From an uncultured Gammaproteobacteria bacterium (GTDB lineage: Bacteria > Patescibacteriota > Patescibacteriia > Magasanikbacterales > UBA922): a stretch of DNA of 64,000 bases. The first letter of the stretch is position 1. The number at the start of each line of letters is the position of its first letter. Location: assembly GCA_965231005.1 (NCBI GenBank), contig OZ246405.1, positions 738,709-802,708 on the forward strand, given 5' to 3'. The notes under the pieces are model-generated. The model had not been told where the DNA came from. It did no database searches and saw only the letters and a list, made by a program, of their open reading frames with translations. A program made the position numbers and the translations under genes. Positions 40,435 through 44,838 of the stretch are shown here, in pieces.

Positions 40435-41019
40435 CTAGTCGCCTTTCCATCCTTCTACATTTGCAGCGATCAGTGCAAAGGATATGCCGAATGCTCCTGC
40501 CCCGAGCTTTTCAAGTTGTTCGAACATAGGATGTGATCTGATCATCATGTATAGGACCAGCAAGATCATCAGTGCACTGGGTGCCATGAAAAGACCGTCG
40601 TAGCCATCTTCATGCACTCCTTTGCTTTCTGCATCACCAACGCCCTCGTAGTAGACGATCGGATCTTTGAACGAGTCATCCACATCTGTTCTCACAACGA
40701 TCAAAGACATCATTTCTTCCAGTGGAAAGTAGTTGTGCTCAAGCAACCGGGTCAATGCTTCGGTGAGAGCCTCTCGTCCGCTGTCAGACAGTCCTTGAAT
40801 GTACTCTCGAAGTTCTTTGCGTAGCGTAGCGTCTGGCTTCAGGTTCACCACACCACCGAGTGGTCCATATTCAGACACTCGAATGTGTCGATTCCTAATG
40901 CCAGTCAACGCATGCTCACCAAATGCCTTCATTCCTGAGATTGCGAAGAGCGGCGCCAAAGCCATCTTTCCGAGATTCATATTGCCCCCTTGTGGAAGTG
41001 TTTGTTCGGAGTCTAGCAT
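40435..41019 (-). CDS. hypothetical protein (194 aa) with C-terminal hydrophobic segments; GC-rich (~48-50%)
   Basis: A clean ORF whose codon usage is distinct from its neighbours. No motif is recognised. Confidence 0.4.
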   Translation of the reverse strand: MLDSEQTLPQGGNMNLGKMALAPLFAISGMKAFGEHALTGIRNRHIRVSEYGPLGGVVNLKPDATLRKELREYIQGLSDSGREALTEALTRLLEHNYFPLEEMMSLIVVRTDVDDSFKDPIVYYEGVGDAESKGVHEDGYDGLFMAPSALMILLVLYMMIRSHPMFEQLEKLGAGAFGISFALIAANVEGWKGD

Positions 41020-41087: not shown

Positions 41088-41852
41088 ATGGATACATTTT
41101 TGAAGAAAATTATCAAAGAGGGAGGAATGATAGCAAAGAAATTTTTTGATAAAGGTGTTACTCACACAACCAAGGCGCATCTTGGGGATTTGCTTACAGA
41201 AGCTGATATGGAAGTAAGTAATTATTTAGTTACGCAGATTCATAAAGCATACCCAGACCATCATATTTTTAGTGAAGAAATGGATGAAGAAATTAATCCA
41301 GGAGCGCAATATGAATGGGTAATTGATCCAATCGATGGTACACGGAATTTTGCAATGGGAATTCCAATGTGGTGTGTACTTGTTGCTGTTTTGAAAGATG
41401 GTGAACTACATATGAGTGCTGTGTACAATCCAACTGCAGATGAATTATTTTTTGCAGAAGCTGGAAAAGGTGCTACCATGAATGAAAAAGAAATCCATGT
41501 CAACAATACAGAAACAACAGAACATGGTTTTGGCATTTGTGCACGTAGTTCAACAGATTTTCCTTTTAGAGAAGAGTTTGTTCGCGCGATGAATGAAATC
41601 GTTGATAACACAAACACGTGGGTTCATTCTTTTGGCACAATGCTTGGTGTCTGTTATGTTGCAAACGGTGGTATTGATTTCTTTTTTGCAAATACAGGAT
41701 ATGATTTTGATAATTTAGCTCCTGCACTTATTGCAAGAGAAGCTGGTGCGCTTGTTACAGACTGCGATGGAAATGAATGGAAGCGAGATCGACATGATAT
41801 TGTTATTGCAAATCCAAAACTACATCCGAAACTTATGGAATTTTTTAGATAA
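41088..41852 (+). CDS. inositol monophosphatase family protein
   Basis: IMPase motifs WVIDPIDGTRNF and ...DGE... Confidence 0.85.
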   Translation: MDTFLKKIIKEGGMIAKKFFDKGVTHTTKAHLGDLLTEADMEVSNYLVTQIHKAYPDHHIFSEEMDEEINPGAQYEWVIDPIDGTRNFAMGIPMWCVLVAVLKDGELHMSAVYNPTADELFFAEAGKGATMNEKEIHVNNTETTEHGFGICARSSTDFPFREEFVRAMNEIVDNTNTWVHSFGTMLGVCYVANGGIDFFFANTGYDFDNLAPALIAREAGALVTDCDGNEWKRDRHDIVIANPKLHPKLMEFFR

Positions 41853-41856
41853 ATAT

Positions 41857-44838
41857 ATGAAGACATATCAAGATTTTTTAGACAACAAAGGGGAGCAAGA
41901 ATGGCAGAAAAAGTGGGAAAAGAATGGCACATTCAAAACTCCAGAAAAAGTAACTGCAAAAAATAAATATTATATTTTGCCGCAACTTCCATATCCATCT
42001 GGAAGCGGTCTTCATGTTGGTCATGCAGAAGTATATACTGCGTGCGATATTTATGCGCGGTATCAACGCATGAACAAAAAGAATGTTCTTCAAGTTATTG
42101 GTTGGGACTCTTTTGGTTTGCCTGCAGAAAATTATGCTATTAAAACAAATGTTCATCCGCGCAAAAGTACAAATGATGCAGTAGATAATTTTCGCTCACA
42201 AATAAAAGCACTTGGAATTTCTGTTGACTGGGAAAGAGAAACAGCAAGTCATAGTCCTGAGTATTATAAATGGACGCAGTGGTTTTTCTTGCTCATGTAC
42301 AAACGTGGACTTGCATACAGAAAAATGCAAACAGTAAATTGGTGTGAAAGTTGTAAAACTGTTCTTGCAAATGATCAAGTAAAAGAAGGAAATTGTGAAC
42401 GTTGTGATACTGTTGTTGATCAAAAAGAAATGGAACAATGGTTCTTGAAAACAACACAGTATGCTGACCGTCTTTTAGAAGGGTTAGATGATCTTGACTG
42501 GCCAGAAGAAACAAAAAAACGACAGCGCGATTGGATTGGTCGTTCTGAGGGAGTTAATTTTAAAATGAAAGTAAAAGGATCAGATGTTCATTTTGAAGTA
42601 TATGATTCGGTCCCTCAGACATATACAGCACAAACATTTGTAGTCATTGCGCCAGAACATCCAAAATTACCAGAATTGGTAAGGGGTACAAAGCATGAGA
42701 AAGAAGTGTTGGATTTTGTAGAAAAAGTAAAAAAGAAAAAAAAGGAAGGGAACAAATTTGAGGTTGAGCAGGAAATTGACGGTATATTTACTGGTCTTTA
42801 CATGGATGATCCATATGGCACAGGTGATTTACCTCTCTGGGTTGCATCATTTGCCATTGTAGACTATGGAAGCGGTGTTGTAGGTTGTAGTGTTCATGAT
42901 GAGCGTGATTTTACTTTTGCAAAAAAATTTGATATTCCACTTCGGCCAGTCATGTTTCCAGATGATAAGGCAGAAGCAAAGAAAGTCAAAAATCTTGAGT
43001 ATTGTTATCATCATGATGTTAATGCAGTTTTAGCTTCCCCAAAAGAATTTGAAGGAAGAAAATGGGGTGAAGCACGAGATGAAATAATAGATTTTTTAGT
43101 AGAAAAGGGGATTGCAACACGTGCAGTTCAATACAAACTCCGAGACTGGTCAATTTCTAGACAGCGTTTTTGGGGTGCACCAATTCCAATGTTGTTTAAT
43201 GAAGAAAAGAAGAATAAAAAATATAAATATCTTTGTATTCATGGATTTACAGCAACAAGTCAATCAGTATTTTGGAATTCTGTAAAAAACACACTAGAAG
43301 CACAAGGACATGAAGTATATTGTCCTGATTTACCAAATACTGATGCACCAACCATGAATGAACAAGTAGATTTTATTATAGATAATTTTGATCTTACAGA
43401 CGACACTGTTATCCTTTCTCACAGTCACGGTGCAGGTGTTGCTATGCGACTGCTTGAAAAAACTGAAAAGCATGTTGCAAAGGTTGTATTTATTGATGGG
43501 TTTATTCGTCCAGAATTTAATGACAAAAAAAGACCACTTGTTGAAAAGAGTGGCAAATGGAAATTTGATTTCAAAAAAATTAAAACATTATCCGATGAAT
43601 TTGTTGTTATTGGAGATAATAAATTTCCAGTTATTCCAAAAGACCAGTTAGAAGAAATGGCAGAATTATTCGATGCACAACTTGCATATGTTCATGCAGA
43701 AGATGAACATTTTAAAACAGCAAATGAACCATCACTTCTAGAATATATTTTTGTAGATGGATGGAAAACAGTTCCAGAAGAAGATCTTCCAGTTGAATTG
43801 CCAGATGATGTTGACTTTAAACCAACAGGGGAGTCACCACTCAATTATTCAAAAGATTTTCAAAAAGGAGTTGAAAAGAAATATGGAAAAGGGTGGAAAC
43901 GTGAACCAGATACACTTGATACATTTATGTGTTCAAGTTGGTATTACTTTAGATATCTTGATCCACACAATGATAAGGAATTTGCATCACCAAAACAATT
44001 AAAAACATGGATGCCAGTTGATTTTTATCTTGGTGGTGCAGAACATGTAAATGGACACTTGCTTTATTCACGTTTTTTCACAAAAGTACTTCATGATGCA
44101 GGATATATTGATTTTGATGAACCATTTACAACGCATCGTCATCAAGGAATTATTCTTGGTGCAGATCATAGAAAAATGAGTAAGCGGTGGGGCAATGTGG
44201 TCAATCCAACAGATGTTGTAGATCAGTTTGGTGCAGACACGTGTCGCATGTATGAGATGTTTATGGGGCCGCTTGAAGATGCAAAGCCATGGGACACAAA
44301 TGGGGTAAAAGGGGTAAGACGGTTTTTAGACAAAGTTTGGAAGTTGCAAGAGAAAGTATCAGACAAAGCATCATCAAAACAAATTATAAAAATATTGCAC
44401 CAAACAATTAAAAAAGTTGGTGATGATACCAATGAGTTGAGGTTTAATACTGCGATTGCAAAACTTATGGAACTTGTAAACGCATATAGCAAGGAAGAAA
44501 GCATTGCAACAAGTGAATATAAAGCGTTTTTGATCATGCTTTCTCCATTTGCACCACATATTACAGAAGAACTTTGGAATCGACTTGGAAATACGAAAAG
44601 TATCTCATTTGAAAAATGGCCAACATACGATGAAAAGAAAATTGTTGAAGATACAATAACACTGGCTGTGCAGGTGAATGGAAAAGTACGTGCTACAATG
44701 GAAGTCGCAGCTGATATTTCAGAAAAAGATGCGCAGGCACAGGCACTTGAATTAGAAAATGTTCAGAAATGGTTGGATGGAAAAAAACCAAAAAAAGTTA
44801 TTTATGTAAAAGGGAAGTTAATCTCTATTGTTGTATAA
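41857..44838 (+). CDS. leuS: leucyl-tRNA synthetase carrying an inserted YdeN/RBBP9-type alpha/beta-hydrolase domain
   Basis: HIGH (HVGH), KMSKS (KMSKR), the CP1 editing domain (GSGVVGCSVHDERDFTFA, YKLRDWSISRQRFWGAPIP) and a C-terminal anticodon-binding region. The start was trimmed to the ATG at 41857. A ~180-aa insertion lies at approximately nt 43195-43755. Confidence 0.9.
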   Translation: MKTYQDFLDNKGEQEWQKKWEKNGTFKTPEKVTAKNKYYILPQLPYPSGSGLHVGHAEVYTACDIYARYQRMNKKNVLQVIGWDSFGLPAENYAIKTNVHPRKSTNDAVDNFRSQIKALGISVDWERETASHSPEYYKWTQWFFLLMYKRGLAYRKMQTVNWCESCKTVLANDQVKEGNCERCDTVVDQKEMEQWFLKTTQYADRLLEGLDDLDWPEETKKRQRDWIGRSEGVNFKMKVKGSDVHFEVYDSVPQTYTAQTFVVIAPEHPKLPELVRGTKHEKEVLDFVEKVKKKKKEGNKFEVEQEIDGIFTGLYMDDPYGTGDLPLWVASFAIVDYGSGVVGCSVHDERDFTFAKKFDIPLRPVMFPDDKAEAKKVKNLEYCYHHDVNAVLASPKEFEGRKWGEARDEIIDFLVEKGIATRAVQYKLRDWSISRQRFWGAPIPMLFNEEKKNKKYKYLCIHGFTATSQSVFWNSVKNTLEAQGHEVYCPDLPNTDAPTMNEQVDFIIDNFDLTDDTVILSHSHGAGVAMRLLEKTEKHVAKVVFIDGFIRPEFNDKKRPLVEKSGKWKFDFKKIKTLSDEFVVIGDNKFPVIPKDQLEEMAELFDAQLAYVHAEDEHFKTANEPSLLEYIFVDGWKTVPEEDLPVELPDDVDFKPTGESPLNYSKDFQKGVEKKYGKGWKREPDTLDTFMCSSWYYFRYLDPHNDKEFASPKQLKTWMPVDFYLGGAEHVNGHLLYSRFFTKVLHDAGYIDFDEPFTTHRHQGIILGADHRKMSKRWGNVVNPTDVVDQFGADTCRMYEMFMGPLEDAKPWDTNGVKGVRRFLDKVWKLQEKVSDKASSKQIIKILHQTIKKVGDDTNELRFNTAIAKLMELVNAYSKEESIATSEYKAFLIMLSPFAPHITEELWNRLGNTKSISFEKWPTYDEKKIVEDTITLAVQVNGKVRATMEVAADISEKDAQAQALELENVQKWLDGKKPKKVIYVKGKLISIVV

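What the first reader, a model, noticed from the sequence alone, without database searches (positions are those of the whole stretch)
43195..43755. Leucyl-tRNA synthetase carries an inserted YdeN/RBBP9-type alpha/beta-hydrolase domain
The single 1035-aa LeuS ORF has HIGH, an intact CP1 editing domain and KMSKS. Between the end of CP1 (…RQRFWGAPIPM) and the resumption of the catalytic core (DGWKTVPEEDLPVELPDD…) there is an extra ~180 aa. That segment aligns along its length to standalone YdeN/RBBP9 (DUF1234) serine hydrolases. It has an oxyanion-hole I-H-G-F, the nucleophile elbow LSHSHG (GxSxG-type), and downstream Asp and His in the expected positions (VVIGDNKFP…HAEDEHF). It is not intein-like: there is no C/S…HN and no splicing blocks. 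An esterase fold fused inside an aaRS is unusual. It could be a second trans- or post-transfer hydrolytic activity, or a moonlighting domain.
Basis: partly seen in the sequence, partly recalled or inferred. Interest (0 to 1): 0.75.

Follow-up and report, generated by a model that had tools for sequence, protein, structure and literature searches.

The report
Serine hydrolase nested inside leucyl-tRNA synthetase
A leucyl-tRNA synthetase of a tiny uncultured (CPR) bacterium really carries a complete small serine-hydrolase enzyme inside its catalytic core. Relatives of this hydrolase are repeatedly built into, or encoded right next to, leucyl-tRNA synthetase genes in many ultra-small bacteria and archaea, which points to an undescribed partner activity of this enzyme.

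Summary
The LeuS gene (41857-44838, 993 aa) has a ~183-aa domain (aa 451-633, window 43207-43755) at the tip of the beta-hairpin after WGAPIP.

**What the domain is**
- It scores above the Pfam cut-offs for Abhydrolase_1, Abhydrolase_6 and Ser_hydrolase.
- Its best solved relatives by sequence and fold are YdeN and RBBP9 (TM about 0.8).
- It keeps the HG oxyanion motif, the nucleophile Ser523 and His618.
- The acid residue is not at the canonical position. A conserved D/E (D587) lies three residues earlier.

**It is not an artefact.** The identical protein occurs in three assemblies, one a 1.23-Mb contig. 91 of the 119 other related LeuS clusters aligned carry an insert at this site, while close relatives (71% identity) lack it.

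**New finding.** This hydrolase clade is specifically tied to LeuRS.
- It is nested at three or more sites, one only 6 residues from the CP1 editing motif.
- Otherwise it is a separate gene 0-36 nt from bacterial-type or archaeal-type LeuRS genes, once together with a YbaK-like deacylase.

**Interpretation.** RBBP9 removes aminoacyl groups that have a free alpha-amine. I therefore propose a LeuRS-coupled aminoacyl hydrolase for quality control; this is inferred, not shown. The idea that it replaces a dead CP1 domain was tested and rejected. No literature describing it was found.

The parts
41857..44838 (+). leuS gene, 993 aa plus stop. Bacterial-type leucyl-tRNA synthetase that hosts the nested domain.
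   Evidence: ORF list. TIGR00396 scores 870 bits against a cut-off of 548. The full-length AF2 model matches LeuRS structures with TMt about 0.8. The same 993-aa product is called in public assemblies.
42013..42024 (+). HIGH signature (HVGH, aa 53-56).
   Evidence: Translation and alignment to 1h3n.
42526..43098 (+). CP1 editing domain (aa 224-414).
   Evidence: Pfam PF13603, E = 1.2e-39.
42604..42621 (+). Variant T-rich editing motif DSVPQT, where canonical LeuRS has TTRPDT.
   Evidence: The variant is conserved in 120 or more metagenome LeuS loci, mostly without a hydrolase.
43180..43206 (+). Host strand PIPMLFNEE, the N-terminal arm of the hairpin that carries the insert. In T. thermophilus and many CPR homologues this hairpin bears the first CxxC of a four-Cys cluster.
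   Evidence: Strand 445-447 in the model.
43207..43755 (+). Nested YdeN/RBBP9-family serine hydrolase domain (aa 451-633).
   Evidence: Pfam. PDB sequence search. AF2 pLDDT 95-98 within the full-length model and 96.8 alone. Foldseek hits 1uxo, 2qs9, 7oex and 9fcr with TM 0.79-0.84. Boundaries come from relatives without the insert.
43240..43245 (+). HG oxyanion-hole motif (H462-G463).
   Evidence: His is conserved in 114 of 117 family domains.
43417..43431 (+). Nucleophile elbow SHSHG with the predicted nucleophile S523.
   Evidence: Ser is conserved in 114 of 117 domains and the elbow Gly in 111 of 117. It aligns with RBBP9 S75.
43516..43536 (+). Loop FNDKKRP (aa 554-560), a signature of the LeuRS-linked clade (F, D, R). 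It is mostly a gap in other standalone family members.
   Evidence: Group-specific conservation.
43615..43617 (+). D587, the candidate acid of the triad. It lies 3 residues upstream of the canonical YdeN/RBBP9 acid position (F590 here).
   Evidence: D or E at this position across the window-type clade, while position 590 is variable. Alignments to YdeN and RBBP9.
43708..43710 (+). H618, the catalytic histidine (EHF).
   Evidence: Conserved in 116 of 117 domains.
43756..43797 (+). Host strand DGWKTVPEEDLPVE, the C-terminal arm of the hairpin, where the LeuRS core resumes.
   Evidence: Strand 636-638 in the model.
44173..44187 (+). KMSKS signature (KMSKR). The leucine-specific domain that precedes it in T. 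thermophilus is absent.
44377..44721 (+). Anticodon-binding domain.
   Evidence: Pfam PF08264, E = 4e-23.

Best explanation
**Shown**
- The gene encodes a bacterial-type LeuRS of a Magasanikbacteria-like CPR bacterium.
- A complete, independently folding YdeN/RBBP9-family serine hydrolase domain is nested at the tip of the surface beta-hairpin that follows WGAPIP.
- All LeuRS signatures are kept.
- The hydrolase keeps its HG motif, nucleophile Ser and His. It also has a conserved carboxylate close to, but not at, the usual acid position.
- The domain belongs to a distinct clade of the family that is specifically linked to LeuRS.

**How the clade is linked to LeuRS**
- Nested after WGxPIP (site A, as here).
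- Nested in the first hairpin of CP1, only about 6 residues before the T-rich editing peptide (site B).
- Nested inside CP1 (site C).
- Encoded as a separate gene 0-36 nt from a LeuRS gene of either the bacterial or the archaeal type.

**Inferred**
- Its solved relative RBBP9 cleaves aminoacyl groups that carry a free alpha-amine, forming acyl-enzymes with Leu/Ile, Met, Phe, Tyr and Trp. By analogy, the domain is an active aminoacyl-group hydrolase working together with LeuRS.
- The most likely role is as an extra quality-control step. It would deacylate wrongly made aminoacyl esters, with mischarged tRNA-Leu the prime candidate, in cis when nested and in trans when separate.
- It would act alongside the CP1 site, not in place of it.

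**My estimates**
- Real nested hydrolase fold: above 0.95.
- Catalytically active: about 0.75.
- Functionally coupled to LeuRS: about 0.8.
- Specifically an aminoacyl-tRNA or aminoacyl-ester deacylase: about 0.35-0.4.
For: **Identity and fold:**

**Catalytic residues:** among 117 family domains, the HG-motif His is kept in 114, Ser in 114 and His in 116.

**A real gene:** the identical protein occurs in three assemblies, including a 1.23-Mb contig.

**Spread:**
- 91 of the 119 other related 90%-identity clusters aligned have a site-A insert.
- The carriers named by their sources include Magasanikbacteria, Buchananbacteria, Parcubacteria and Nomurabacteria, and a contig labelled Euryarchaeota. 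Doudnabacteria, Gracilibacteria and a Sungbacteria protein carry it at site B instead.

**Positions:**
- Site B lies 6 residues before TTRPDT (L005, L008, L018).
- In ValS one insertion site is homologous to LeuS site A.

**Gene linkage of the nearest standalone relatives:**

| Standalone hydrolase | Position relative to LeuRS gene |
|---|---|
| P0064 | 6 nt upstream of LeuS |
| P0085 | 24 nt upstream |
| P0092 | 36 nt upstream |
| P0103 | 2 nt downstream |
| P0100 | abuts an archaeal-type LeuRS |
| P0091 | Pacearchaeota cluster: hydrolase, hydrolase, YbaK-like deacylase, Ham1, archaeal LeuRS |
| P0107 | two genes from LeuS |
| ORF in L164 | adjacent to LeuS |

That is 7 of 9 nearest standalone relatives within 3 genes of a LeuRS gene, plus L164. 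Chance expectation is under 1% each. A distant family member used as a control is not linked.

**Alternative arrangements in related hosts:** LeuRS proteins 59% identical to each other carry the hydrolase either nested or as an adjacent gene.

**Family chemistry:** RBBP9 is an aminopeptidase that needs a free alpha-amine (PMC8866121). It also activates valacyclovir, an amino-acid ester (a reference cited in PMC7730578).

**Rigid placement:** the junctions of the insert are predicted with pLDDT 95-97.
Against: - The distance and orientation of S523 relative to the tRNA 3' end, the synthetic site and the CP1 site are therefore unknown.
- Most carriers keep a canonical CP1 editing site, so an extra deacylase is not obviously needed.
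- The same family is also nested in proteins unrelated to tRNA (SecA, UvrA, Der) and fused to small-molecule 'housecleaning' enzymes.
- LeuRS of these lineages accepts other nested domains too: NUDIX, methyltransferase and HAD.
- The domains are acidic (mean pI about 6), which is not what a free-standing tRNA binder usually looks like.
- The canonical acid residue is missing in the window protein.
- The insert evolves much faster than the host, 43-46% against 74-76% identity.
- Seen from the LeuRS side, only about 6% of a sample of 120 CPR LeuS loci have the hydrolase nested or adjacent.
Confidence: 0.4

Rival explanations
1. Amino-acid supply. The domain is an RBBP9-like aminopeptidase that releases N-terminal hydrophobic residues, including Leu, from imported peptides. 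It is coupled to LeuRS (and more rarely ValRS and AlaRS) to feed the synthetase in organisms that cannot make amino acids.
For: - The only biochemically defined activity in the family is an aminopeptidase that requires a free alpha-amine, with Leu/Ile adducts on the active-site residue.
- The acidic pI fits a peptide or small-molecule substrate.
- Linkage is to synthetases of aliphatic amino acids.
Against: - There is no precedent for channelling from a peptidase to a synthetase (my own knowledge).
- RBBP9 prefers aromatic residues, yet no PheRS, TyrRS or TrpRS hosts were seen among the top 150 family representatives.
- The neighbouring YbaK-like deacylase and the placement beside the CP1 editing peptide fit proofreading better.
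Confidence: 0.2
2. An autonomous 'housecleaning' esterase with no mechanistic tie to leucylation. A promiscuous small domain has been captured at structurally permissive surface loops of abundant essential proteins, which gives co-expression and gene economy in reduced genomes.
For: - The same family is nested in SecA, UvrA, Der, TsaD, Fmt, ValS and AlaS. It is also fused to glyoxalase, Ham1, peptidase S51, an aminoglycoside nucleotidyltransferase and riboflavin kinase.
- LeuRS also hosts NUDIX, methyltransferase and HAD domains.
- The insert shows cassette-like turnover, with weak correlation between insert and host divergence (r = 0.26).
- Presence and absence vary among close relatives.
Against: It does not explain why free-standing members of this clade sit 0-36 nt from LeuRS genes of both bacterial and archaeal type, upstream or downstream, in different lineages. 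It also does not explain the repeated use of LeuRS among all possible hosts.
Confidence: 0.2
3. A non-catalytic module. The fold would be kept as a structural, tRNA-binding or regulatory appendage, for example compensating for the missing leucine-specific domain or the lost zinc knuckle.
For: - The window protein lacks the canonical acid residue and has an unusual elbow, SHSHG.
- The leucine-specific domain is absent and the CxxC pairs are lost in this clade.
Against: - Ser, His and the HG motif are nearly invariant across 117 domains, which is hard to explain without catalysis.
- Relatives that lack the insert also lack the leucine-specific domain and the cysteines, so there is nothing specific to compensate for.
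Confidence: 0.07
4. A selfish protein-level insertion (intein-like or otherwise mobile), or an assembly or sequencing artefact.
For: - Insertions lie at conserved sites of several essential proteins.
- There is presence/absence polymorphism and replacement by another subtype at the same site.
Against: - The fold is alpha/beta-hydrolase, not Hint.
- There is no Cys/Ser/Thr at the N-junction and no His-Asn at the C-junction.
- There is no endonuclease and no flanking direct or inverted repeats, and no Rfam intron.
- The identical protein is found in three independent assemblies, and diverged homologues (41-69% identity) keep the same architecture.
Confidence: 0.02

Closest known systems
YdeN (B. 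subtilis, PDB 1uxo) and human RBBP9 (2qs9, 7oex, 9fcr); Pfam PF06821 Ser_hydrolase / DUF1234
   Same: - Same compact, lid-less alpha/beta-hydrolase fold of about 180 aa (TM 0.79-0.84, rmsd 2.3-2.6 A).
- Same HG motif, nucleophile elbow and catalytic His.
- The Pfam match is above the cut-off.
   Different: - It is nested inside another enzyme instead of being free-standing.
- Sequence identity is only 19-22%.
- The acid residue is shifted 3 positions.
- There is a clade-specific loop (F554, D556, R559), and Q503 and E624 replace the usual W and F.
- The substrate is unknown.
Canonical bacterial LeuRS (T. thermophilus 1h3n/2bte; E. coli 4aq7)
   Same: - HIGH and KMSKS signatures, the ZN1/CP1-hairpin cysteines, the CP1 editing domain, and the anticodon-binding and C-terminal domains are all present.
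- Identity is 30-33%, with TMt about 0.8.
   Different: - A 183-aa hydrolase is nested in the hairpin at Tth 438-445.
- The leucine-specific domain is absent.
- The T-rich editing motif is DSVPQT.
- The four-Cys cluster of that region is lost.
Cis and trans aminoacyl-tRNA editing modules (CP1, INS/YbaK/ProX, AlaX/ThrRS second additional domain, DTD and the DTD-like N-terminal domain of archaeal ThrRS)
   Same: - These are hydrolytic modules either fused to a synthetase or encoded as free-standing factors. The same module occurs in both forms, as found here.
- A YbaK-like gene sits in one of the clusters.
   Different: None of the known editing modules is an alpha/beta-hydrolase with a serine nucleophile (my own knowledge; no such report was found). 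No deacylase activity has been shown for this domain.
Synthetases with other appended enzymatic domains, e.g. NCBIfam NF040702 'isoleucine--tRNA ligase, N-acetyltransferase domain-containing'
   Same: An essential class Ia synthetase carries an unrelated enzyme domain. NF040702 appears in the hit list.
   Different: The partner fold is different. Here the domain is nested inside the catalytic core at a hairpin tip, not appended, and it also exists as a conserved neighbouring gene.

Membership tests
Bacterial-type leucyl-tRNA synthetase (TIGR00396 leuS_bact) | Whole-protein profile score above the curated cut-off | tested here: met
   870 bits against a cut-off of 548.4.
Bacterial-type leucyl-tRNA synthetase (TIGR00396 leuS_bact) | Class I signatures HIGH and KMSKS | tested here: met
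   HVGH at aa 53-56 and KMSKR at aa 773-777.
Bacterial-type leucyl-tRNA synthetase (TIGR00396 leuS_bact) | CP1 editing domain with the canonical T-rich peptide (TTRPDT), the GTG motif and the universal Asp | tested here: inconclusive
   The domain is present (PF13603, E = 1.2e-39) and the HDERD Asp is kept. However, the T-rich peptide is DSVPQT and the GTG region is GSGVVGCS. The variant is conserved in 120 or more loci. Whether it still edits is unknown.
Bacterial-type leucyl-tRNA synthetase (TIGR00396 leuS_bact) | Leucine-specific domain before KMSKS | tested here: not met
   Tth residues 580-636 have no counterpart; query residues 768 and 773 flank the gap. The domain is also absent in all CPR relatives aligned.
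YdeN/RBBP9 serine hydrolases (Pfam PF06821, DUF1234) | Profile match above the gathering score | tested here: met
   26.8 bits for the insert alone and 24.1 bits in the full protein, against a cut-off of 22.
YdeN/RBBP9 serine hydrolases (Pfam PF06821, DUF1234) | Compact lid-less alpha/beta-hydrolase fold of about 180 aa | tested here: met
   AF2 pLDDT 96.8. The top Foldseek hits are 1uxo, 2qs9, 7oex and 9fcr with TM 0.79-0.84. The next-best folds reach TMt of 0.54 or less.
YdeN/RBBP9 serine hydrolases (Pfam PF06821, DUF1234) | HG oxyanion motif, Ser in a Sm-x-S-x-Sm elbow, and the catalytic His | tested here: met
   H462-G463, S523 in SHSHG, and H618. They are conserved in 114, 114 and 116 of 117 homologous domains respectively.
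YdeN/RBBP9 serine hydrolases (Pfam PF06821, DUF1234) | Catalytic Asp at the canonical position after strand 7 (RBBP9 D138, the 'DDP' motif) | tested here: not met
   The aligned position is F590. A conserved D/E lies at position 587 in this clade. Whether D587 completes the triad could not be checked, because no coordinates were available.
YdeN/RBBP9 serine hydrolases (Pfam PF06821, DUF1234) | Hydrolase activity (aminopeptidase or amino-acid ester hydrolase, as for RBBP9) | not testable with these tools
   Requires an enzyme assay. The family activity is taken from PMC8866121.
Inteins / Hint-domain protein-splicing elements | Hint fold, an N-terminal Cys/Ser/Thr, a C-terminal His-Asn, and a nucleophile at +1 | tested here: not met
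   - The fold is alpha/beta-hydrolase.
- The junctions read ...NEE|KKNKK... and ...YIFV|DGW....
- No intein or Hint family appears among the Pfam matches listed at E up to 1 for either query.
Known aminoacyl-tRNA trans-editing families (YbaK/ProX, AlaX, DTD) | Homology to one of these folds | tested here: not met
   No such family appears among the Pfam, NCBIfam or PDB hits of the insert. The resemblance is in arrangement only: fused or free, and next to a synthetase gene.
Known aminoacyl-tRNA trans-editing families (YbaK/ProX, AlaX, DTD) | Deacylation of mischarged tRNA | not testable with these tools
   Needs biochemistry.

The most novel reading that the evidence does not exclude
The LeuRS-linked clade of YdeN/RBBP9 hydrolases could be a previously unrecognised structural class of translation quality-control enzyme. 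It would be a serine-nucleophile alpha/beta-hydrolase that removes aminoacyl groups made in error by LeuRS, either from tRNA-Leu or from lysine side chains aminoacylated by escaped Leu-AMP. It would act in cis when nested beside the CP1 hinge and in trans when encoded next to leuS. It would be used by both bacterial-type and archaeal-type LeuRS across CPR bacteria and DPANN archaea.
Probability: 0.3. Interest if true: 0.9.

Novelty: new variant of a known kind. Interest (0 to 1): 0.72.

Why it matters
Proofreading by aminoacyl-tRNA synthetases is thought to rest on a small, closed set of editing folds. Here a conserved serine hydrolase is tied to LeuRS in several independent ways: nested at several sites, or as the adjacent gene, with both bacterial-type and archaeal-type enzymes.

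This suggests either an additional quality-control chemistry or a new kind of metabolic coupling in organisms with minimal genomes. It also gives the orphan YdeN/RBBP9 family a concrete, testable cellular partner.

The loci further show that LeuRS in CPR bacteria is a hot spot for nested enzyme domains (hydrolase, NUDIX, methyltransferase, HAD). That is of interest for protein-engineering rules on domain insertion and for how reduced genomes pack functions.

Tried and rejected
1. **Does the hydrolase replace a degenerate CP1?**
   - In the first sample, 15 of 92 insert-bearing LeuS had the DSVPQT/GSGVVGCS CP1 variant, against 0 of 28 proteins without a site-A insert.
   - A metagenome scan for the motif then found 59 LeuS of this variant without the insert and only 4 with it.
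   - The variant is an independent, conserved CP1 type, so the idea is rejected.

2. **Intein or mobile element?** No splicing residues, no Hint fold, no flanking repeats and no Rfam hit.

3. **Chimera?** Rejected.

4. **A second copy of the domain in the window?** None found.

5. **Homologue search with the CP1 region alone.** It returned only gene fragments and was uninformative.

6. **First homologue search with the insert plus flanks.** The conserved flanks swamped it and only one true insert-bearing hit came back.

7. **AFDB fold search.** The library was unavailable.

8. **Model coordinates.** They are not exposed, so no distances to the active sites or the tRNA could be measured.

9. 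**Net charge as a proxy for tRNA binding.** The domains are acidic, which is weak evidence and not decisive.

10. **Literature.**
    - Nine full-text searches were run (one more was rejected for a bad term). None found a description of a LeuRS-hydrolase fusion or of an alpha/beta-hydrolase editing factor.
    - The papers on the T. thermophilus and E. coli LeuRS structures are not held.

Full report
**1. The observation**

The region lies in one long ORF on the + strand (41731-44838). The first 42 codons overlap the upstream inositol-monophosphatase-like gene. The likely start is ATG 41857, which gives 993 aa. Public gene calls give the same product, identical over its full length (P0211).

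The protein is a bacterial-type LeuRS.
- NCBIfam TIGR00396 scores 870 bits against a cut-off of 548.
- Pfam finds tRNA-synt_1, the LeuRS editing domain PF13603 and Anticodon_1.
- HVGH and KMSKR are present.

Against T. thermophilus LeuRS the alignment runs in three blocks: query 13-447 to Tth 10-438, query 637-768 to Tth 445-579, and query 773-993 to Tth 637-876.

Close relatives that lack the insert read PIPVLYDDK|NELHPVPEEDLPV. The window reads PIPMLFNEE|KKNKKYKY...EYIFV|DGWKTVPEEDLPV. This places the insert at aa 451-633, window 43207-43755, in the turn of a beta-hairpin.

**2. What the insert is**
- **Profile matches.** On its own the segment matches Abhydrolase_1 (3.4e-10), Abhydrolase_6 (7.7e-10) and Ser_hydrolase PF06821 (5.7e-6), all above their curated cut-offs.
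- **Solved relatives by sequence.** The best are B. subtilis YdeN (2e-7) and human RBBP9 (3e-4).
- **Full-length model.** An AlphaFold2 model built on 120 homologues has mean pLDDT 91.4 and pTM 0.87. The insert scores 95-98, and so do both junctions. Strands 445-447 and 636-638 lie on either side of the insert, as expected for the two arms of the hairpin that carries it.
- **Insert-only model.** pLDDT is 96.8. Its best structural matches are YdeN (TM 0.79/0.81) and RBBP9 (TM 0.80-0.84, rmsd 2.3-2.6 A). Other alpha/beta-hydrolases follow far behind.
- **Catalytic residues.** In 117 full-length domains of the family, the HG-motif His is present in 114, the nucleophile Ser in 114 and the catalytic His in 116. 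In the window these are H462-G463, S523 (elbow SHSHG) and H618.
- **The acid is the exception.** The RBBP9 D138 / YdeN 'DD' position aligns with F590. A D or E is instead conserved at 587 throughout the window-type clade. I could not check in 3D whether D587 reaches H618, because model coordinates are not exposed.

**3. Not an artefact, not splicing, not a normal LeuRS feature**
- The identical protein is found on three assemblies: a 1,232,850-bp contig, a 128,873-bp ENA contig and a third contig of 20-50 kb.
- A 41%-identical copy with the same architecture was the first hit in an independent metagenome.
- There are no intein junction residues and no Hint fold, no flanking repeats, and no Rfam match in the gene.
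- The T. thermophilus LeuRS aligned residue by residue lacks the segment. The E. coli, N. gonorrhoeae, Agrobacterium and Mycoplasma hits in that search were not aligned residue by residue. LeuS proteins of 797-865 aa, 71-72% identical to the window over its C-terminal part, also lack it.

**4. Distribution**
- The genome scan found the same-site insert in two Magasanikbacteria, a Buchananbacteria, another Patescibacteria MAG and a contig labelled Euryarchaeota SM23-78.
- In two Doudnabacteria and a Gracilibacteria the same kind of domain sits elsewhere: in the first hairpin of CP1, ending about 6 residues before VFTTRPDT (site B).
- An exhaustive profile search of 1.84 billion representatives gave 1854 hits with E below 1e-3 and 59 with E below 1e-30. 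The best hits are mostly LeuS proteins carrying the domain at site A, site B or, once, inside CP1 (site C). Free-standing proteins of about 180 aa make up the rest.
- A profile search with full-length site-A proteins listed 120 clusters at 90% identity. Of the 119 aligned with the window, 91 carry a site-A insert.
- The sources name these proteins 'alpha/beta fold hydrolase', 'leucine--tRNA ligase' or 'leucyl-tRNA synthetase/predicted alpha/beta hydrolase family esterase'. The fusion is therefore visible to annotation pipelines.
- Nine full-text literature searches were run. None found a description of it.
- The nearest named relative (69% identity) is from Candidatus Magasanikbacteria. That is the likely origin of the window.

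**5. A promiscuous family with a LeuRS-linked clade**

The family is also nested in other proteins:
- ValS at two sites, one between WFGHRIP and DTLDTWFSS, which is homologous to LeuS site A
- AlaS, SecA, UvrA, Der, TsaD and Fmt

It is also fused to glyoxalase, an aminoglycoside nucleotidyltransferase, peptidase S51, Ham1 and riboflavin kinase. LeuS of these lineages also carries NUDIX, methyltransferase, HAD and unassigned domains inside CP1. Taken alone, this would suggest passive capture at permissive loops.

The gene neighbourhoods argue otherwise. I looked up the nine free-standing proteins closest to the insert profile:

| Free-standing hydrolase | Position relative to LeuRS gene |
|---|---|
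| P0064 | stop codon 6 nt before the start of an 809-aa LeuS, on 11 contigs |
| P0085 | 24 nt upstream of a 957-aa LeuS |
| P0092 | 36 nt upstream of an 801-aa LeuS |
| P0103 | 2 nt downstream of an 806-aa LeuS, followed by Sua5 |
| P0100 | abuts an archaeal-type LeuRS |
| P0091 (Pacearchaeota) | same-strand cluster: hydrolase, hydrolase, YbaK-like deacylase, Ham1, archaeal-type LeuRS |
| P0107 | two genes from LeuS |
| P0081 | could not be judged |
| P0082 | no synthetase on a short contig |

- A distant family member used as a control lies next to ybeY.
- The LeuS next to P0103 is 59% identical to a LeuS that has the domain nested (P0062). Related hosts therefore use either arrangement.
- In a genome of about 1000 genes, the chance of lying within three genes of leuS is under 1%. 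Seven of nine is not chance, even allowing for shared ancestry, because both the orientation and the LeuRS type differ between cases.

**6. Evolutionary behaviour**
- A neighbour-joining tree of 222 domains places site-A inserts in at least two or three separate groups.
- Site-B inserts are interleaved with free-standing proteins and with the copies found in other hosts (a rough tree on 178 columns).
- The insert diverges faster than its host. Identity to the nearest relatives is 43-46% for the insert and 74-76% for the core.
- Some close hosts carry a different subtype at the same site. Core and insert identities correlate weakly (r = 0.26).
- Gain, loss and replacement at the same hairpin have therefore occurred repeatedly.
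- The LeuRS-linked clade has its own signature: loop F554-x-D556-x-x-R559, Q503 instead of W, D587 instead of S, and E624 instead of F. This points to a substrate pocket different from that of ordinary YdeN proteins.

**7. A tested and rejected idea**

The window and its nearest relatives have DSVPQT instead of TTRPDT, and GSGVVGCS-HD instead of GTGAIMAVPAHD, in CP1.
- In the first sample this variant occurred only in insert-bearing proteins: 15 of 92 against 0 of 28. That suggested the hydrolase had taken over from a decayed editing site.
- A pattern scan of metagenome contigs for the variant motif returned 120 LeuS loci. Of the 63 that could be judged, 59 lack the insert and 4 have it.
- The variant is a widespread and conserved CP1 type, independent of the hydrolase. 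Most hydrolase carriers have a canonical CP1.

**8. Mechanism**

Shown:
- a folded, conserved hydrolase with serine-hydrolase residues, rigidly set in a hairpin of the LeuRS core
- specific linkage of its clade to LeuRS

From the literature:
- RBBP9 is an aminopeptidase that needs a free alpha-amine. It forms acyl-enzymes with single Leu/Ile, Met, Phe, Tyr or Trp residues (PMC8866121).
- It has also been reported to activate valacyclovir, an amino-acid ester (a reference cited in PMC7730578).
- In N. gonorrhoeae LeuRS the aminoacylation domain is interrupted by the CP1 hairpin, CP2, the editing domain, a zinc-binding 'Zn2' module and the LS domain. Zn2 is drawn with the static body of the enzyme (PMC9424281).
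- My assignment of site A to that module rests only on the CxxC...CxxC pattern seen in T. thermophilus and many CPR homologues.

Inferred: the domain hydrolyses an aminoacyl group from some leaving group, and its substrate or product is shared with LeuRS. I rank the possibilities as follows.
- **(a) About 0.35-0.4.** An additional deacylase for aminoacyl esters made in error, with mischarged tRNA-Leu first. It would work in cis or in trans. Support comes from site B sitting beside the editing peptide, from the YbaK-like neighbour, from hosts that are mostly editing synthetases (Leu, Val, Ala), and from the way known editing modules occur both fused and free.
- **(b) About 0.2.** An aminopeptidase that supplies Leu.
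- **(c) About 0.2.** An autonomous housecleaning esterase carried along.
- **(d) Under 0.1.** A non-catalytic appendage.

Against (a):
- CP1 is intact in most carriers.
- The domains are acidic.
- The canonical acid residue is missing here.
- The family also occurs in SecA, UvrA and Der.

**9. Comparison and novelty**

By profile score, fold, nucleophile and His, the insert belongs to PF06821. It fails the canonical-acid test. The host is a bacterial-type LeuRS that lacks the leucine-specific domain and has a variant editing motif.

No known editing fold (CP1, INS/YbaK, AlaX, DTD) is an alpha/beta-hydrolase; this rests on my own knowledge, and one search found no counter-example. I file it as a new variant of a known kind: a synthetase with an added enzymatic domain. 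There is a realistic chance (about 0.3) that it marks a new class of LeuRS-associated quality-control enzyme.

**10. Verdict**

The arrangement is common in CPR lineages but I found no description of it in the literature I could search. The LeuRS-specific linkage makes it well worth an experiment. Interest 0.72.

Noticed in passing
window 44158-44175 (aa 768-773); alignment to 1h3n: This LeuRS has no leucine-specific domain. Tth residues 580-636 correspond to only about 4 residues before KMSKR. All aligned CPR relatives share this.
   Followed up: partly
window 42604-42621 and 42865-42900 (CP1): The CP1 editing motifs are a conserved variant: DS[VI]PQT for TTRPDT, and G[ST]G.V.[CS]S.HD for GTGAIMAVPAHD. 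The variant occurs in 120 or more metagenome LeuS loci, mostly without any hydrolase. Its editing competence is unknown.
   Followed up: yes
L002:4351-7764, L008:5236-8868, L006:4288-7803; P0070, P0240, P0280, P0311: Related CPR LeuS proteins carry other enzyme domains nested inside CP1: NUDIX (PF00293), SAM-dependent methyltransferase, HAD, and an unassigned segment of about 150 aa. These often occur together with the hydrolase, giving proteins of up to about 1370 aa.
   Followed up: partly
P0106, P0181, P0171, P0168 (ValS); P0118 (AlaS); P0083 (SecA); P0133 (UvrA); P0132 (Der); P0117 (TsaD); P0139 (Fmt): The same hydrolase family is nested in other essential proteins. In ValS, one of the two sites is homologous to LeuS site A.
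   Followed up: partly
L212:4001-8549 (Candidatus Pacearchaeota contig JAHZTO010004402.1): A same-strand cluster holds two Ser_hydrolase genes, a YbaK-like tRNA_edit gene, Ham1 and an archaeal-type LeuRS.
   Followed up: partly
L214:1-6303 compared with window 41088-44838 and L001: The local gene order is shared between lineages: inositol-monophosphatase-like gene, then LeuS, then (hydrolase), then Sua5, then SHMT further on. In these lineages the hydrolase is either nested (window, L001) or a separate gene just after LeuS (L214).
   Followed up: partly
window 40435-41019 (- strand): A 194-aa ORF has GC 0.47-0.49, against about 0.37 for the window. It has no Pfam hit on record and is present in another assembly of the same organism (L202).
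   Followed up: no
L007:4729-8004 and L015:4654-7446: Contigs labelled Euryarchaeota and Woesearchaeota encode LeuRS proteins that align with the bacterial-type enzyme along the core. Both have a different, longer C-terminal region ending ...PGKPAI(V/F).. . L007 also carries the site-A hydrolase.
   Followed up: no
L001:3-2656: The LeuS gene on this ENA contig (name suggests a long-read assembly) is broken into four ORFs. This is probably indel errors rather than a genuinely split gene.
   Followed up: no
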